Source: Microcoleaceae cyanobacterium
Lineage (GTDB): Bacteria; Cyanobacteriota; Cyanobacteriia; Cyanobacteriales; Microcoleaceae
Length of the DNA: 32,000 nucleotides
Assembly: GCA_049649525.1 (NCBI GenBank)
Contig: JBARZE010000001.1
Span: 1 to 32,000, forward strand
Direction: 5' to 3'
Shown one piece after another: positions 9,889 through 14,292 of this stretch (position 1 is the stretch's first letter; each line of letters begins with the position of its first letter). Below the pieces are notes generated by a model. It was not told where the DNA came from and did not search any database. It worked only from the letters and a program-made list of their open reading frames with translations. The translations under genes were made by a program, and so were the position numbers.

Positions 9889-10003
9889 AGGGTGAGCTCT
9901 GGTAATTTTTAATGTTGATATGGTGATGATTCCCTGATTTGACCTGAATCTAGGCTATTTTGAGACTCTAGCAACTTAAAATTATCTGTCAACCCCTGTT
10001 AAA

Positions 10004-10050
10004 TGTTACACGTAAAGACGTTACATATGTAGAGACGTTACATGTAACGT
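10004..10050. promoter_or_regulatory. Tandem 17-mers running into a perfect 16-bp palindrome. This is a candidate operator or small dispersed repeat in a divergent promoter region.
   Basis: ACGTAAAGACGTTACAT (10010..10026) and ATGTAGAGACGTTACAT (10027..10043) are 15/17 identical. ACGTTACATGTAACGT (10035..10050) is its own reverse complement. A partial GTTACA sits at 10005..10010. The repeat is certain; its function is unknown. Confidence 0.5.
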
Positions 10051-10179
10051 TCCTACAGAATAATGAATTCACAAAGATATAAGGATGTAAGATAGTCTGA
10101 CAATTCTAATTGATCCAGAATCCTAGAATATAAAATAGAAGTTATATTTAGCTTTCTCTATAATTGCTTAAGATTAACA

Positions 10180-10638
10180 ATGGAACCAATAGAATGGGTT
10201 GTTGCGGGGCTTATATTTGTTGCTGCCAAAGTACCAGATAAAGCGGCTGATAAGATTTTAGATCAATTGTGGGATCGGGGTCAAAACCTACTGAGTCAAC
10301 TGCAACGTAAAGCGCCTCAAACAGCAGCAGCTATTGATCAGGCACAAACTACACCGTTAAACTGGCAACAAACGGTGATTGAAATTGAGGCGATCGCACA
10401 AACGGATACAGAAGTGGCTGAGGCGGTTCAAGCTGTAGAAGCAACCGTGACAGAACATCCAGAATTGCAACAAAAAATAGCAACAGAAATTCAGTCTCAA
10501 CCTACCGTTATTCAGAATAATACAAAATTAGCTGAGAAAATTAATACCGTCATTCAGGGTACGACTATTAAAGGCGGCAACGTCGGTAATACAGGAATTG
10601 TTGGAAGTACAATTCAAGGCGGTACATTCAATATATGA
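10180..10638 (+). CDS. 152-aa helical N-terminal module with a hydrophobic first helix and a Gly/Asn/Thr-rich C-terminal tail. It is in frame with the downstream NB-ARC gene across one TGA.
   Basis: ATG start. IEWVVAGLIFVAA hydrophobic helix, then an acidic/Gln-rich helical middle. Tail TVIQNNT...TVIQGTTIKGGNVGNTGIVGSTIQGGTFNI. Stop TGA at 10636..10638. Confidence 0.7.
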   Translation: MEPIEWVVAGLIFVAAKVPDKAADKILDQLWDRGQNLLSQLQRKAPQTAAAIDQAQTTPLNWQQTVIEIEAIAQTDTEVAEAVQAVEATVTEHPELQQKIATEIQSQPTVIQNNTKLAEKINTVIQGTTIKGGNVGNTGIVGSTIQGGTFNI

Positions 10639-10716
10639 CTACAGTCGTCTGCTGGGGGGCAGACAAAGTTAACCTCCATTCCCCAAAATTTACCCCGTAG
10701 CGGCGCAACCAAGTTT

Positions 10717-13095
10717 GTGGGGCGAGATCGACCGCTAGAACAACTCTATCATCACCTGCAACAAAACCATCAGGTGGCAATTTCTGCGATCGCAGGCATG
10801 GGAGGTATCGGTAAAACTGAACTCGCCTTGCAATATAGCCAGTTACATTTGCAACGAGAAACCTATCCAGGGGGAGTCTGTTGGTTACGGGTCAGCGATC
10901 AAAACGTTGGGGTGAATATTCTTAATTATGCTAAAGTTTATCTCAAGTTAAACCCACCAGAAGACGAAGATCTAGACATTCAGATTGCTTACTGCTGGCG
11001 TAACTGGCCAATTCCCCCTAACCCTCCTTACCCGACATCAGATGTTTTGCTAATTTTTGATGATGTCTCTGACTACACGGCTATTGAGAAGTTTCTCCCG
11101 TCTGATCCTCGCTTCAAAATCTTGGTGACAACCCGTAAACAATGGTTAGCAGACTCTTTTCAACAACTGCCATTACCTGTATTAGATGAGTCCCCTGCCT
11201 GGGAACTTTTAGCGGCTTTAATTGGAGAAAATCGCCTGCAACAGGAACCGCAACAGGTAAAATTGCTGTGTGAAGATTTAGGTTATCTGCCGCTGGGTTT
11301 GGAATTAGTCGGACGCTATCTCAAGCGCAAGTCTAACTTATCTTTAGCAGAAATGCGCGATCGCTTAAACCTGCATCATAACGCCCTACAGAAACGCGAT
11401 CGCAAAGGTGAAGCTTTCCCAGACATGACGGCTAAACGAGGGGTTAAAGCCGCCTTAGAATTAAGTTGGCAAGAATTAGATGATGAAGAGATTGAATTAG
11501 CGTGTTTACTGAGTGTGTTTGCCTCAGCCCCCATTATTTGGGAATGGGTGGAACAAAGTCAACCTCAACAGGATATTGAGGAGTTAGAAGAAATTCGTGA
11601 TGATGTTTTAGTGAATTTAAGTTTACTTCAAGATGAAGGAGAGAATACCTATCAACTTCATCCCCTCATCCGAGAGTTTCTCAAATATAAGCGAGAACAG
11701 CGAGAGTCTGCGGACAACATGAAGCAAGCTGTTTGTAAAGTTATGGTGGCGATCGCTAAGACAATTCCCGATACTCCCACCCGCGAAGATATTGTGGCTG
11801 TTACTCCTGCCATTCCTCATATTATTGAAGTAGCTGAAGTGCTGACAGACTGGCTGAGTGATGAAGATTTCTTCTGGCCATTTACAGCCCTCGGTCGATT
11901 TTACAACGGTCAGGGACTCTATTTCCAGGCAGAACCTTATTTTAAGCAGTGCCTTGAAATCTGTAAAAGTCGCTTAGGAGAGCATCATCCCCATGTGGCA
12001 GATAGCCTAAATAACTTAGCTTTACTTTACTGCTCTCAAGGCAAATATGCAGAAGCTGAACCCCTTTACCAACAAACTTTAGAGATGACACGGCTGCTTT
12101 TCGGAGCAAATCATCCCCATACAGCAACTAGCCTCAATAATTTAGCCTCTCTTTACGACTCTCAAGGCAAATATGCAGAAGCTGAAGCCCTTTATCAACA
12201 AGCCTTACAGATATTAAATCATCCTGATGTTGCTGATAGCCTAAATAACTTAGCCGGACTCTACTGCTCTCAAGGCAAATATGCAGAAGCTGAACCCCTT
12301 TACCAAAAAGCCTTACAGATCAGACAACAGTTTTTAGGAGACCATCATCCTGATGTTGCTGATAGCCTTAACAACTTAGCCGGACTCTACTGCTCTCAAG
12401 GCAAATATGCAGAAGCTGAACCCTTGTTTCAACAAGCCTTAGAGATGACGCAGCCGCTTTTCGGAGAGTCTCATCCTAATGTAGCACCAAAACTTAACAA
12501 TTTAGCCTATCTCTACTGCTCTCAAGGCAAATATGCAGAAGCTGAACCCTTGTTTCAACAAGCCTTAGAGATATTAAAGCAACTTTTCGGAAATAACCAT
12601 CCCAATGTTGCTGCTAGCTTAAATAATTTAGCCGAACTTTATCGATATCAAGGCAAATACATAGAAGCTGAACCCTTTTACCAACAAGCCTTAGAGATAC
12701 TAAAACAACTTTTCGGAGAGTCTCATCCTGATGTAGCGACCAGCCTCAACAATTTAGCTTTACTTTACTACTCTCAAGGTAAATACGCAGAAGCTGAACC
12801 GCTTTACAAACAAGCTTTAGAGATGAGACAGCAACTGTTAGGAGAGCATCATCCTCATGTAGCAACTAGCCTCTATAATTTAGCTTTACTTTACGATTCA
12901 ACAGGGCGCTACAAACAAGCAGACTGCCTCTATCTAGAAGCAGTTATAATTGCAATCGAAACATTAGGGGAAGATCACCACGATACTAAACTTTATCAAA
13001 ACAATTATCTGCTCTTTTTACAACAAGTAGCTGCTGAGGGTCGTCAGTCGGAGTTATCTGAAGTGAGTTTGCAGATTCTTTCAAAGTTGGGATAA
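10717..13095 (+). CDS. NB-ARC (AP-ATPase) STAND NTPase with nine 42-aa TPR (TPR_12/KLC-like) repeats. The nominal GTG start truncates the conserved pre-P-loop linker.
   Basis: Walker A GMGGIGKT, Walker B VLLIFDDV, KILVTTR, GLPL-type LGYLPLGLELVG, and MHD-like YQLHPLIREF. The TPR units read HP.VA.SLNNLA.LY.SQGKYAEAEPLYQQALEI. The frame stays open upstream to 10639 (LQSSAGGQTKLTSIPQNLPRSGATKF). Confidence 0.88.
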   Translation: MGRDRPLEQLYHHLQQNHQVAISAIAGMGGIGKTELALQYSQLHLQRETYPGGVCWLRVSDQNVGVNILNYAKVYLKLNPPEDEDLDIQIAYCWRNWPIPPNPPYPTSDVLLIFDDVSDYTAIEKFLPSDPRFKILVTTRKQWLADSFQQLPLPVLDESPAWELLAALIGENRLQQEPQQVKLLCEDLGYLPLGLELVGRYLKRKSNLSLAEMRDRLNLHHNALQKRDRKGEAFPDMTAKRGVKAALELSWQELDDEEIELACLLSVFASAPIIWEWVEQSQPQQDIEELEEIRDDVLVNLSLLQDEGENTYQLHPLIREFLKYKREQRESADNMKQAVCKVMVAIAKTIPDTPTREDIVAVTPAIPHIIEVAEVLTDWLSDEDFFWPFTALGRFYNGQGLYFQAEPYFKQCLEICKSRLGEHHPHVADSLNNLALLYCSQGKYAEAEPLYQQTLEMTRLLFGANHPHTATSLNNLASLYDSQGKYAEAEALYQQALQILNHPDVADSLNNLAGLYCSQGKYAEAEPLYQKALQIRQQFLGDHHPDVADSLNNLAGLYCSQGKYAEAEPLFQQALEMTQPLFGESHPNVAPKLNNLAYLYCSQGKYAEAEPLFQQALEILKQLFGNNHPNVAASLNNLAELYRYQGKYIEAEPFYQQALEILKQLFGESHPDVATSLNNLALLYYSQGKYAEAEPLYKQALEMRQQLLGEHHPHVATSLYNLALLYDSTGRYKQADCLYLEAVIIAIETLGEDHHDTKLYQNNYLLFLQQVAAEGRQSELSEVSLQILSKLG
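11980..12900 (+). repeat. Intragenic 126-bp DNA repeats encoding the TPR array
   Basis: CTCTCAAGG-type unit landmarks at 12033, 12159, 12267, 12393, 12519, 12645 (variant) and 12771. Spacings are 126, 108, 126, 126, 126, 126. An identical 62-nt run occurs at 12385..12446 and 12511..12572. Confidence 0.9.
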
Positions 13096-13506: not shown

Positions 13507-13556
13507 AGATTCTTTCACAGTTGGAATAATTTAGAATTTCTGGTATTTTTTTAGCA
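13507..13556. repeat. Repeat A' (50 bp). It overlaps the 3' end of the PIN gene and retains a remnant NB-ARC/TPR-type C-terminal frame (LEILSQLE*).
   Basis: AGATTCTTTCACAGTTGGAATAATTTAGAATTTCTGGTATTTTTTTAGCA is 44/50 identical to repeat A. Confidence 0.85.
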
Positions 13557-14010
13557 AGGTATTGATTAATTTGGGCGAAGCATAAAAAGTAGTTTCCTGT
13601 AAACAAGTGATTGCTGTTGAGAAGTCAATTAAACCTTTTGATGCTCCATAACCTAAGACACCTAAAAGACCCGTTACATTTAAATTTCGCGCCTGGGCTA
13701 TTCGTCGGGCAGCTCGTTCATCAATTAATAATAAATTGATTTTGTACTCCTCTGCCAGTAAAATAGCTTCCTGTTCACCTAAATCTAGTTTTTGGAGAGT
13801 TAGGTCAGACTGTGGATTAATTGACTTAATTTGTAACCAATTTGGAGGCTTTGCAATCCAATTTTTAATTAATTCAGGTGCATTGCGATCGCTTAATTCG
13901 TTGGCGACAGCTTGAGGGATTAGGACAGATTCATATAACTGTGGAAGAAGATTAATATAATCAATAAGTATCAGATAACAAAGTGGAGATGTATCAGACA
14001 CAATAATCAT
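13531..14010 (-). CDS. PIN-like nuclease toxin (DUF3368 family)
   Basis: 159 aa. N-terminal acidic site MIIVSDTSPL, internal LGEQEAILLA and LLLIDERAAR motifs. It starts 6 nt after the stop of the upstream UPF0175 gene. Confidence 0.8.
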   Translation of the reverse strand: MIIVSDTSPLCYLILIDYINLLPQLYESVLIPQAVANELSDRNAPELIKNWIAKPPNWLQIKSINPQSDLTLQKLDLGEQEAILLAEEYKINLLLIDERAARRIAQARNLNVTGLLGVLGYGASKGLIDFSTAITCLQETTFYASPKLINTLLKKYQKF

Positions 14011-14016
14011 ATCAGT

Positions 14017-14292
14017 TTATCCCAATTCCAACTTTTCTAGCTTTTCTAGCGTTTCTAAATCTTGTTCAAAATCTTCAATTTCATAATTTAGATAAACCCC
14101 CGCCTGTTTTAAAAAGGCATCCACTTGTAAACGATGAGGCAAGTTTAAAATTCGACCGATCTCAGCGTGGGTAATCAGTTCATTTTTATAGGCTTCAACG
14201 ACAAGTATCTCTAAAACTTTTTCAGGTAAATTATCCCATTTATCTTGAACTCGACTTGCTAGTATATCTGGAATATCAAGAGTAATTTGCAT
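14017..14292 (-). CDS. UPF0175-family antitoxin (HTH), the partner of the DUF3368 PIN toxin
   Basis: 91 aa. MQITLDIPDILA...ILVVEAYKNELITHAEIGRILNL is typical of UPF0175. The gene is tightly coupled upstream of the PIN gene. Confidence 0.75.
   Translation of the reverse strand: MQITLDIPDILASRVQDKWDNLPEKVLEILVVEAYKNELITHAEIGRILNLPHRLQVDAFLKQAGVYLNYEIEDFEQDLETLEKLEKLELG

What the first reader, a model, noticed from the sequence alone, without database searches (positions are those of the whole stretch)
10180..13095. One in-frame TGA (10636..10638) is all that separates an effector-like N-terminal module from an NB-ARC/TPR STAND NTPase
Seen in sequence:
- The ORFs 10180..10638 and 10717..13095 are in the same frame (both starts are 1 mod 3).
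- The 26 codons between them (10639..10716) contain no stop and read LQSSAGGQTKLTSIPQNLPRSGATKF. This runs straight into VGRDRPLEQL and then the P-loop GMGGIGKT.
- The NLP..S...FVGR..EL stretch is the linker normally found just N-terminal of the P-loop in bacterial NB-ARC/STAND proteins. The nominal GTG start at 10717 cuts it in half.
- There is no in-frame ATG, GTG or TTG between the TGA and 10717.
- The stop context is TGA-C, reported as the weakest termination tetranucleotide in E. coli.
- A perfect 6-bp GC-rich hairpin, GTCTGC (10647..10652) / GCAGAC (10659..10664), with loop TGGGGG, starts 8 nt after the stop.

Inference, three alternatives:
1. A very recent nonsense pseudogenisation of an all-in-one NLR-like protein.
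2. An assembly or sequencing error.
3. Regulated stop-codon readthrough giving both a free 152-aa module and a full-length module-NB-ARC-TPR protein from one locus. That would be an unusual way to set effector/sensor stoichiometry in a bacterial NLR-like system.
Basis: partly seen in the sequence, partly recalled or inferred. Interest (0 to 1): 0.75.

Follow-up and report, generated by a model that had tools for sequence, protein, structure and literature searches.

The report
Conserved leaky stop joins effector to NLR
In a group of filamentous cyanobacteria, one conserved TGA stop codon in a weak context separates a small cell-death-type effector gene from an immune-receptor (NLR-like) gene that has no start codon of its own, so the receptor is most likely made only when ribosomes read through the stop.

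Summary
It is not a sequencing error or a recent nonsense mutation.

- **Conservation.** The 152-aa module has relatives of 41-100% identity in Microcoleaceae, Lyngbya, Limnoraphis, Caldora and Symploca. In 17 distinct loci it ends at the same place with TGA followed by C, then runs in frame and stop-free into a STAND NTPase. Three different NTPase types occur downstream.
- **Selection.** Module and NTPase both show dN/dS of about 0.1-0.3, while synonymous sites between lineages are saturated.
- **No own start.** No conserved start codon exists for the NTPase.
- **RNA element.** A 5-bp stem begins 8 nt after the TGA. It pairs in 14/14 core loci, has one covarying pair, and sits in a stretch of raised synonymous-site conservation. 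Its folding energy is unremarkable.
- **Module identity.** It resembles a Bell domain (helical) with a disordered C-terminal G/N/Q-rich motif. In a 73%-identical relative, the NLR has its own ATG and its own motif copy, which is the canonical two-gene amyloid-signalling layout.

Best reading (about 0.62): programmed UGA readthrough yields abundant free effector plus a rare effector-motif-NLR fusion. No product has been observed. I found no published description.

The parts
10105..10179 (+). Conserved upstream region (likely promoter and 5' leader) that travels with the cassette.
   Evidence: About 75 nt before the ATG align across loci that sit in different genomic neighbourhoods (GGAAT..TAGAATATAAAATAGAAGTTATATTTAGC..). 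The function is inferred.
10180..10557 (+). Helical, Bell-like domain of the 152-aa module (residues 1-126). It has an N-terminal hydrophobic helix and Glu at position 2.
   Evidence: The AF2 model on a 66-sequence alignment has helices 3-15 and 25-126, mostly at pLDDT 70-90. The family has 258 clusters, nearly all of 120-165 aa. It has no Pfam, NCBIfam or PADLOC match. The features match the Bell description in Dyrka et al. 2020.
10558..10635 (+). C-terminal G/N/Q/T-rich signalling motif (QGTTIKGGNVGNTGIVGSTIQGGTFNI). It is BASS-like and predicted to be disordered.
   Evidence: pLDDT is below 50 for residues 129-152. In L023 and L031 the downstream sensor gene carries its own copy of the motif at its N-terminus. 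Canonical NLR N-termini carry a similar motif directly before the linker.
10636..10639 (+). TGA stop plus +4 C, the candidate recoding site.
   Evidence: TGA-C is found in 17 of 17 in-frame loci. The window's other ORFs mostly end in TAA (14 TAA, 3 TGA including this one, 3 TAG). UGA-C is documented as an inefficient terminator (PMC5289835).
10647..10664 (+). Stem-loop that starts 8 nt after the stop. The conserved core is GTCTG (10647-10651) with CAGAC (10660-10664). In this window a sixth pair, C10652-G10659, extends it.
   Evidence: The stem pairs in 14/14 core loci. Pair 27-38 of alignment A4 is UA in 7, CG in 5 and UG in 2. Synonymous-site identity is 0.9-0.97 in codons +6 to +11 (sliding 7-codon window), against 0.5-0.7 background. 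It is not an intrinsic terminator. Its energy z-score is unremarkable.
10673..10678 (+). CCUCCA, a possible partner of the loop UGGGGG (10653-10658). Pairing would form an H-type pseudoknot. Tentative.
   Evidence: A loop-to-downstream helix of 4-7 bp is possible in all 14 core loci. Position 32-52 is AU, GU or GC. Shuffle and swap controls are not significant.
10639..10716 (+). 26 in-frame, stop-free codons that encode the linker (..IPQNLPRSG..KF) found N-terminal to the NB-ARC domain. There is no start codon inside.
   Evidence: Homologous linkers lie inside single ORFs in canonical relatives. Indels in this segment among loci are all multiples of three.
10717..13095 (+). NB-ARC (about 10726-11352; P-loop 10795-10818) plus a TPR_10/TPR_12 array (about 11881-13074), ending at TAA 13093-13095. 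The nominal GTG start at 10717 is the Val of FVGRD.
   Evidence: Pfam gives NB-ARC at E 1.4e-17 and TPR_12 at 5e-122. dN/dS is 0.1-0.2 against relatives. The GTG is absent in Limnoraphis, which has FFGRD.

Best explanation
The locus is a single translational unit of an NLR-type cell-death or immunity system.

**Termination product.** Ribosomes start at ATG 10180. Most terminate at UGA-C (10636-10639) and release a 152-aa effector. The effector is a Bell-like helical, presumably membrane-targeting domain followed by a C-terminal amyloid-type (BASS-like) signalling motif.

**Readthrough product.** A minority of ribosomes decode the UGA, most plausibly with near-cognate tRNA-Trp. Three things would help: the weak UGA-C context, the relatively low RF2 reported for cyanobacteria, and probably the conserved stem (possibly a pseudoknot) placed 8 nt downstream. 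These ribosomes continue into the linker, NB-ARC and TPR, giving a fusion of about 971 aa: effector-motif-NB-ARC-TPR.

**Proposed signalling.** The NLR has no start codon and no motif of its own, so readthrough is its only route to expression and supplies its signalling motif. When the TPR sensor is triggered, NB-ARC oligomerisation would cluster the motifs. The clustered motifs would nucleate the amyloid fold and template the excess free effector into its active, membrane-damaging form.

**Status of each step.**
- Shown: the anatomy, its conservation, and purifying selection on both halves.
- Inferred: readthrough itself, the decoding tRNA, the role of the stem, amyloid templating, and the cell-death output.
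For: 1. **The stop is ancient and specific.** Thirteen module homologues of 45-100% identity all end at the same position. In 17 distinct loci the stop is TGA followed by C. The window otherwise prefers TAA, and dS between lineages exceeds 1.
2. **The downstream sequence is always in frame and open.** Frame 0 has 0 stops against 35 and 41 over 812 codons. This holds although the spacer varies from 25 to about 51 codons before F[VF]GR, and although three different NTPases follow: NB-ARC-TPR, a NACHT-like GKPGSGKST protein in L004, and a GLGGIGKST NB-ARC in L026.
3. **Both halves are under purifying selection**.
4. **No conserved initiation codon.** The window's GTG is the Val of FVGRD and is missing in Limnoraphis. 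There the first canonical start lies two codons before the P-loop, inside the beta-strand that leads into it. No promoter or terminator pattern was found on the + strand between the module's stop and the NB-ARC ORF.
5. **A natural contrast.** In L023 the module is 73% identical to that of L024. Its NLR has its own ATG overlapping the stop (ATGA), its own motif copy (MIEKAVNLAQGDYASINIEKQ...), a different frame, and +4 T. L024 and L012 carry the same motif type with TGA-C, an in-frame NLR and no second motif.
6. **The conceptual readthrough junction matches real proteins.** It aligns across the TGA with the N-termini of canonical NLRs that carry their own motif and linker in one ORF (P0268, P0291). 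A distant all-in-one Bell-motif-NACHT ORF has TCA (Ser) directly after ...LNF.
7. **The RNA stem 8 nt downstream is conserved.** It pairs in 14/14 loci, has a UA/UG/CG pair, and shows raised synonymous-site conservation. Limnoraphis-type loci have unrelated G/C-rich hairpins. In L008 and L011/L019 a stem can start 8-10 nt after the stop. In L024 the predicted stem starts about 19 nt downstream.
8. **Published background.** UGA-C is a poor terminator, tRNA-Trp misreads UGA in E. coli and B. subtilis, and cyanobacteria group with species that have more RF1 than RF2 (PMC5289835).
Against: - No protein, ribosome-profiling or reporter evidence exists. Readthrough is purely inferred.
- The stem is short and no more stable than shuffled sequence (z -0.1 to -1.7). 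The pseudoknot is not statistically supported.
- Only one S1 pair covaries, and the number of independent changes is small.
- About half of the evaluable downstream NTPases are interrupted by stops, frameshifts or truncation (L003, L005, L007, L011/L019, L012, L021, L025). These could be real decay or metagenome assembly artefacts.
- One relative's predicted NLR fragment (P0273) begins MESSERDRTKSIPQNLPRSG. That is a start called exactly where the post-TGA linker begins, so at least one lineage may initiate there independently. Its DNA could not be fetched.
- Bell and BASS membership rests on described features and genomic logic, not on a family model.
- Efficient programmed readthrough of chromosomal genes is, to my knowledge, rare in bacteria.
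Confidence: 0.62

Rival explanations
1. Two separate proteins. The NLR is initiated independently at a non-canonical or weak start (GTG 10717, or a near-cognate codon in the linker), perhaps by termination-reinitiation after the TGA. It works without a motif of its own, and no fusion is made.
For: Gene callers do split the locus. A GTG exists at 10717 in the window and several relatives. P0273 starts with M at the first linker codon. Canonical relatives use coupled two-gene layouts such as ATGA in L023. Dyrka et al. report that 42% of Bell/NLR pairs overlap.
Against: No start codon is conserved. GTG 10717 is the Val of the FVGRD motif, would delete the conserved IPQNLPRSG..F linker, and is absent in Limnoraphis. 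Reinitiation does not require the same frame, freedom from stops, TGA specifically, or +4 C, yet all four hold in 17/17 loci. Without a motif or an effector domain the NLR would have no evident output, unlike its canonical relatives.
Confidence: 0.17
2. The TGA is functionally just a stop. Only the 152-aa effector matters, working in trans with other NLRs, and the downstream NTPase is an untranslated, decaying relic of an ancestral all-in-one gene.
For: About half of the evaluable downstream NTPases are interrupted or truncated while the module stays intact. Caldora carries three paralogous cassettes. L027 keeps NF-TGA-C followed by stops.
Against: Intact downstream ORFs of 712-1242 codons persist in five lineages. 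Their dN/dS is 0.02-0.28 over saturated dS, which untranslated DNA would not show. Frame 0 is stop-free from the TGA to the P-loop in 13/13 loci. The cassette has been recombined onto three different NTPases, always in frame.
Confidence: 0.13
3. The UGA encodes selenocysteine, with the downstream hairpin acting as a bacterial SECIS element.
For: A UGA followed closely by a stem-loop with a G-rich apical loop is the general bacterial SECIS layout.
Against: No Rfam SECIS family matches, even at E <= 10. [quoted passage not shown] No homologue has Cys at this position. Aligned sense residues in relatives are Ser (TCA), Ala or Gln. The site lies in a linker after an amyloid-type motif, not in a redox centre. 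There is no tRNA-Sec in the window, though the window covers only 32 kb.
Confidence: 0.03
4. Sequencing or assembly error, or a very recent nonsense mutation in an all-in-one NLR.
For: None beyond the single-sequence view.
Against: The identical TGA-C recurs in independent assemblies from NCBI, ENA, JGI and Logan, across several genera.
Confidence: 0.01

Closest known systems
Bell-domain / BASS amyloid-signalling gene pairs of filamentous bacteria (Dyrka et al. 2020, bioRxiv 10.1101/2020.01.06.895854). The fungal analogue is HET-S/NWD2.
   Same: A short (~120-150 aa) helical protein with an N-terminal hydrophobic helix and an acidic residue at position 2. A C-terminal ~25-aa G/N/Q-rich motif. 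A collinear NB-ARC/NACHT + TPR gene immediately downstream. Restriction to filamentous cyanobacteria. Relatives L023 and L031 show the defining duplicated motif: effector C-terminus matching sensor N-terminus.
   Different: Here the NLR has no motif copy and no start codon. It follows in frame behind a conserved TGA-C plus stem. The paper does not mention stop codons, readthrough or in-frame arrangements. Homology to the published Bell HMM and membership of a particular BASS class were not tested.
All-in-one NLRs (effector-NOD-repeat in one polypeptide), including the rarer Bell-NLR fusions noted by Dyrka et al.
   Same: The conceptual readthrough product has exactly this architecture. An all-in-one Bell-motif-NACHT ORF exists in Calothrix membranacea, with TCA (one base from TGA) after ...LNF.
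   Different: A conserved stop interrupts the fusion, so the main product would be the free effector. No uninterrupted orthologue was found within the close subfamily.
Programmed stop-codon readthrough in viruses: Q-beta coat/A1 (UGA), MuLV gag-pol (UAG, 8-nt spacer, pseudoknot), alphavirus UGA-C. From general knowledge. Weiner & Weber 1973 and Tang et al. 2016 appear in the reference list seen.
   Same: One ORF gives an abundant short product and a rare C-terminally extended one. The stop context is leaky (UGA-C). A structured RNA starts about 8 nt downstream.
   Different: This is a chromosomal bacterial immune-type locus, not a virus. The stem is only 5-6 bp and the pseudoknot is unproven. 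The extension is a whole 818-aa receptor rather than a capsid or polymerase extension.
prfB (RF2) autoregulatory recoding at CUU UGA C
   Same: It uses the poor termination of UGA-C in bacteria, so the outcome depends on RF2 availability (PMC5289835).
   Different: prfB uses a +1 frameshift with an upstream Shine-Dalgarno-like stimulator. Here the downstream ORF is in frame 0 and no slippery CUU precedes the stop.

Membership tests
Bell/BASS two-component NLR amyloid-signalling system | Short effector protein with an N-terminal hydrophobic alpha-helix, an acidic residue at position 2-3, and a helical-bundle fold. | tested here: met
   The protein starts MEPIEWVVAGLIFVAA. AF2 gives helices 3-15 and 25-126. 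The family is nearly all 120-165 aa.
Bell/BASS two-component NLR amyloid-signalling system | Sequence homology to the published Bell domain profile. | not tested
   No Bell model is present in Pfam, NCBIfam or PADLOC. No reference Bell sequence was at hand. Foldseek and HMM searches against the PDB found nothing.
Bell/BASS two-component NLR amyloid-signalling system | The same short motif at the effector C-terminus and at the N-terminus of the adjacent NLR. | tested here: not met
   The window's NLR has no second motif copy and no N-terminus of its own. The feature is met in relatives L023 and L031.
Bell/BASS two-component NLR amyloid-signalling system | An adjacent collinear STAND NTPase (NB-ARC or NACHT) with TPR or WD repeats. 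| tested here: met
   NB-ARC plus TPR_10/12. The same holds in relatives.
Bell/BASS two-component NLR amyloid-signalling system | The motif forms amyloid or prion-like fibrils. | not testable with these tools
   The only data are composition (G/N/Q/T-rich, two pseudo-repeats) and predicted disorder.
Programmed stop-codon readthrough | Conserved stop identity in a leaky context. | tested here: met
   TGA-C in 17/17 in-frame loci, against a TAA-rich background. The canonical two-gene relatives have TGA-T and TAA.
Programmed stop-codon readthrough | The downstream frame-0 ORF is conserved, under purifying selection, and lacks independent initiation. | tested here: met
   Stops per frame are 0, 35 and 41. 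dN/dS is 0.02-0.28. No start is conserved. One unresolved exception is P0273.
Programmed stop-codon readthrough | A stimulatory RNA structure at a fixed short distance 3' of the stop. | tested here: inconclusive
   The stem pairs in 14/14 loci with one covarying pair and raised synonymous conservation. Its energy is not exceptional, and the pseudoknot is not significant.
Programmed stop-codon readthrough | The extended protein product is observed. | not testable with these tools
   No proteomic or ribosome-profiling data are available.
Selenoprotein gene (UGA = Sec with bacterial SECIS) | Sec machinery in the genome, Cys-containing homologues, and a SECIS match. | tested here: not met
   No Rfam SECIS hit. 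No Cys homologue. The literature reports no Sec-decoding trait in Cyanobacteria. The genome-wide presence of selA, selB and selC could not be checked.

The most novel reading that the evidence does not exclude
The UGA-C plus a downstream H-type pseudoknot is a tuned bacterial readthrough signal, analogous to retroviral gag-pol. Because the NLR nucleator exists only as a readthrough product, its level would report the cell's termination capacity (RF2 activity, tRNA-Trp state). Phage- or stress-induced disturbance of translation termination would then raise the nucleator and arm or trigger amyloid-mediated cell death. Immunity would be gated by translational fidelity, and one motif would serve both sensor and effector.
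Probability: 0.12. Interest if true: 0.92.

Novelty: new variant of a known kind. Interest (0 to 1): 0.8.

Why it matters
- **Recoding.** If confirmed, this would be a conserved, family-wide case of programmed stop-codon readthrough in bacterial chromosomal genes. To my knowledge such recoding is known almost only from phages and viruses.
- **NLR systems.** It would be a third way of building NLR/amyloid signalling systems, alongside two-gene pairs and all-in-one fusions. One gene would produce both the abundant effector and the rare receptor that nucleates it, so their ratio would be set by termination efficiency.
- **Annotation.** Pipelines give these NLRs truncated or implausible starts, for example inside the P-loop in Limnoraphis. 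Surveys of bacterial NLRs and of effector/NLR motif pairs will therefore miss or misclassify them.
- **Testability.** The locus offers a compact element of about 45 nt that can be placed directly in a reporter assay.

Tried and rejected
- **Family libraries on the module** (Pfam, NCBIfam, PADLOC): only sub-threshold noise.
- **PDB profile search and Foldseek on the AF2 model:** no significant match, best E about 1. The fold could not be tied to HeLo, MLKL or Bab.
- **Rfam on the junction and on the whole window:** nothing, including SECIS families.
- **Thermodynamic significance of the hairpin:** rejected as evidence, z -0.13 in the window.
- **Pseudoknot S2:** possible in all 14 core loci, but the swap and shuffle tests do not separate cognate from non-cognate pairings. 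I keep it only as tentative.
- **Junction-spanning protein search:** no uninterrupted module-NB-ARC protein among 5.8 billion sequences.
- **Intrinsic terminator or internal promoter between the two ORFs:** none on the + strand.
- **Other mechanisms considered and dropped:**
  - Frameshifting is unnecessary, because the ORFs share a frame.
  - Transcriptional slippage lacks a long homopolymer.
  - An altered genetic code is excluded, because TGA ends other ORFs in the window.
- **DNA of P0273** could not be retrieved, because the look-ups were exhausted.


Full report
**1. The observation**

The sequence is as described.
- ORF 10180..10638 encodes 152 aa and ends with TGA at 10636-10638, followed by C.
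- The next 26 codons are in frame and stop-free (LQSSAGGQTKLTSIPQNLPRSGATKF). They run into VGRDRPLEQL, the P-loop GMGGIGKT and a long TPR array, ending at TAA 13093-13095.
- The first canonical start after the TGA is the GTG at 10717, the Val of FVGRD.
- GTCTGC (10647-10652) and GCAGAC (10659-10664) form a 6-bp stem beginning 8 nt after the stop.
- Pfam finds NB-ARC and TPR_10/TPR_12 downstream. Pfam, NCBIfam and PADLOC find nothing credible for the 152-aa module.
- Taken alone, the hairpin is no more stable than shuffled sequence (z = -0.13).

**2. The TGA is conserved, not an accident**

- A protein search found 13 homologues of the module at 45-100% identity. All are 133-156 aa, so all stop at the same place.
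- I fetched their contigs, ran a genome scan and ran a metagenome scan. This gave 17 distinct loci from Microcoleaceae, Lyngbya, Limnoraphis, Caldora and Symploca MAGs and genomes, plus uncultured samples.
- In all 17 the stop is TGA, the next base is C, and the downstream sequence continues in frame without a stop into a STAND NTPase.
- Over the 812 codons between the TGA and the P-loop in 13 loci, frame 0 has 0 stops. Frames +1 and +2 have 35 and 41.
- The spacer differs in length among lineages: F[VF]GR begins at codon 26, 29, 43 or 52 after the TGA. The differences are always whole codons.
- The partner NTPase differs too. It is NB-ARC-TPR in most loci, a NACHT-like 1176-aa protein in L004, and a different NB-ARC (GLGGIGKST) in L026.
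- Module and NTPase both show dN/dS of roughly 0.1-0.3, while dS between lineages is at or beyond saturation.
- TGA is an ordinary and minority stop in this window (14 TAA, 3 TGA, 3 TAG). The genetic code is therefore standard, and TAA would be the expected drift outcome.
- Together these results exclude sequencing error and recent pseudogenisation.

**3. The NTPase has no start of its own**

- No in-frame ATG, GTG or TTG is conserved between the TGA and the P-loop.
- The window's GTG exists only because Val is conserved in FVGRD. Limnoraphis has FFGRD, and its first canonical start lies two codons before the P-loop. One gene caller even started that NLR at the Met of GMGGVGKT.
- Starting at 10717 would also remove the IPQNLPRSG..F linker. 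Canonical relatives always encode that linker inside the ORF.
- No promoter-like or terminator-like pattern was found on the + strand between the module's stop and the NB-ARC ORF.

**4. An RNA element follows the stop**

- In 14 core loci the sequence is TGA C... (8 nt), GTCTG, 8-nt loop, CAGAC, AAAGTTAA.
- The five stem pairs form in 14/14 sequences. One pair is U-A in 7, C-G in 5 and U-G in 2.
- Among sequence pairs that share an amino acid, codon identity (sliding 7-codon window) rises from a background of about 0.5-0.7 to 0.9-0.97 at codons +6 to +11 after the TGA. TCG, ACA and AAG are invariant. This is the usual signature of an RNA-level constraint on coding sequence.
- Limnoraphis-type loci have unrelated G5/C5-rich inserts that fold strongly. 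In L008 and L011/L019 a stem can start 8-10 nt after the stop. In L024 the predicted stem starts about 19 nt downstream.
- The G-rich loop can pair with CCUC, CCCC or UCCC located 8-9 nt beyond the stem, for 4-7 bp in all 14 loci. That would make an H-type pseudoknot. My swap and shuffle controls do not make it significant, so it stays tentative.
- Folding-energy z-scores are unremarkable throughout. The support for this element is comparative only.

**5. What the module is**

- A profile search of 1.84 billion representatives found 258 clusters. Nearly all are 120-165 aa. Those that carry a source organism name come from filamentous cyanobacteria, including Symploca, Caldora, Moorena, Calothrix, Anabaena, Nostoc, Oscillatoria and Laspinema.
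- AF2 on a 66-sequence alignment gives an all-helical domain, with a hydrophobic helix at 3-15 and helices through residue 126. The C-terminus (129-152) is disordered.
[quoted passage not shown] 2020: Glu at position 2, the hydrophobic first helix, the size, the taxonomic range, and an adjacent NB-ARC/NACHT-TPR gene.
- The decisive evidence for the motif comes from relatives.
  - In L023 the module ends ...NTIEKVVNLAQGENASINIEKQDIKL-TGA. An ATG overlapping that stop (ATGA) opens MIEKAVNLAQGDYASINIEKQF...ERDKFVG, so the NLR carries its own copy of the motif.
  - In Anabaena cylindrica (L031) the module ends with TAA. The next gene starts at its own ATG with a matching motif.
- Homology to the published Bell profile, assignment to a BASS class, and amyloid formation were not tested.

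**6. Why a fusion makes sense**

- L023 is the canonical case: two genes, two motif copies, +4 T, and a different frame. L024 has TGA-C, an in-frame NLR and one motif. Their modules are 73% identical. L012 has the same motif type with the TGA-C layout.
- Across this set, the NLR lacks its own motif and start exactly where the stop is TGA-C and the frames coincide.
- The conceptual readthrough junction (...IVGSTIQGGTFNI-X-LQSSAGGQTKLTSIPQNLPRSG..FVGRD) aligns across the X with the N-termini of canonical NLRs that encode motif, linker and NB-ARC in one ORF. An example is P0291...VDSTVHGGIHTGDINIQPATS...ENIPHSHVIKFVGRS.
- A distant all-in-one Bell-motif-NACHT ORF in Calothrix membranacea has TCA (Ser), one base from TGA, directly after ...STLNF.
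- No uninterrupted module-NB-ARC protein exists in the close subfamily among 5.8 billion database proteins.

**7. Mechanism proposed**

- Most ribosomes terminate at UGA-C and release the free effector.
- A fraction read through and make effector-motif-NB-ARC-TPR.
- Ligand-driven oligomerisation of the fusion would cluster the motifs, nucleate the amyloid fold, and convert the excess free effector into its active form. This follows the HET-S/NWD2 and Bell/BASS logic.
- Published work documents that UGA-C terminates poorly, that tRNA-Trp misreads UGA in E. coli and B. subtilis, and that cyanobacteria group with species having more RF1 than RF2 (PMC5289835).
- Every step after the sequence anatomy is inference.

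**8. Rival explanations**

- **Independent non-canonical initiation or reinitiation.** It cannot explain why TGA, +4 C, a shared frame and freedom from stops are all conserved. It remains possible, and P0273 (MESSERDRTKSIPQNLPRSG...) hints that one lineage may start at the first linker codon.
- **Untranslated relic.** This conflicts with the purifying selection. However, about half of the evaluable downstream NTPases are interrupted: L003, L005, L007, L011/L019, L012, L021 and L025. I cannot tell how much of that is assembly artefact.
- **Selenocysteine.** This is unlikely. There is no SECIS match. No Cys homologue occurs at the position; the aligned sense residues in relatives are Ser, Ala and Gln. 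[quoted passage not shown] The genomes themselves could not be searched for selA, selB and selC.

**9. Novelty**

- Full-text searches found no paper combining readthrough with NB-ARC and cyanobacteria.
- The founding BASS paper does not mention stop codons, readthrough or in-frame arrangements.
- The components are known: NLR with an amyloid-motif effector, and leaky UGA-C with a 3' structure. Their combination appears new: a receptor expressed only as a readthrough extension of its own effector.
- I rate it a new variant of a known kind, with interest 0.8 and confidence in the readthrough reading of about 0.62.

Noticed in passing
window 10105-10179 (and L001, L003, L004, L005, L007, L014 upstream of the module ATG): About 75 nt upstream of the module's ATG are conserved across loci that lie in different genomic neighbourhoods (GGAAT..TAGAATATAAAATAGAAGTTATATTTAGC). 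The cassette seems to carry its own promoter or leader and to have moved as a unit.
   Followed up: partly
window 10003-10050: A cluster of GTTACA repeats, including the palindrome GTTACATGTAAC, lies upstream of the cassette. It is shared with L001 but not with other loci. It could be a regulator binding site.
   Followed up: no
window 13531-14292 (- strand): A UPF0175 (antitoxin-like) gene and a DUF3368 (PIN-like) gene lie just downstream of the NLR. The near-identical locus L001 lacks this pair and has only a 92-aa ORF there, so this is a recent indel next to the cassette.
   Followed up: partly
L008/L009/L010, L011/L019, L024 (Limnoraphis/Lyngbya), first ~100 nt after the TGA: The spacer contains G5/C5-rich repeat-like inserts that translate as ..SPQ(T/N)WGARGAKP.. 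They fold very stably (-39 to -48 kcal/mol) yet stay in frame and stop-free.
   Followed up: partly
L007/L017 nt ~4850 (uncultured Lyngbya MAG): The NLR carries a second in-frame TGA (..DVSDY-TGA-DIEKF.., +4 G) at a position where the window has Thr. This is either a plain nonsense mutation or a second leaky stop.
   Followed up: no
L027 4269-6740 (Calothrix membranacea FACHB-236): An all-in-one Bell-motif-NACHT ORF has TCA after ..STLNF, a glycine-rich multi-pass hydrophobic C-terminal region and no obvious ATG. Just upstream is a separate small module gene that ends NF-TGA-CTAGAG and is followed by stops, next to a DDE transposase.
   Followed up: partly
P0273 (JGI metagenome protein, 134 aa): This predicted NLR fragment starts MESSERDRTKSIPQNLPRSG, so a start codon was called exactly at the first post-TGA linker codon. 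Its DNA could not be fetched, so what lies upstream is unknown.
   Followed up: no
window 11881-13074 vs L001: The TPR array consists of near-identical ~42-aa units (..HPDVADSLNNLAGLYCSQGKYAEAEPLYQ..). The ORF after the TGA is 818 codons in the window and 740 in the 96%-identical L001, which suggests repeat-number variation in the sensor region.
   Followed up: no
L020, L021, L022 (Caldora sp. SIO3E6): One MAG contains three paralogous module-TGA-C-NLR cassettes. L021 has a frameshifted NLR.
   Followed up: partly
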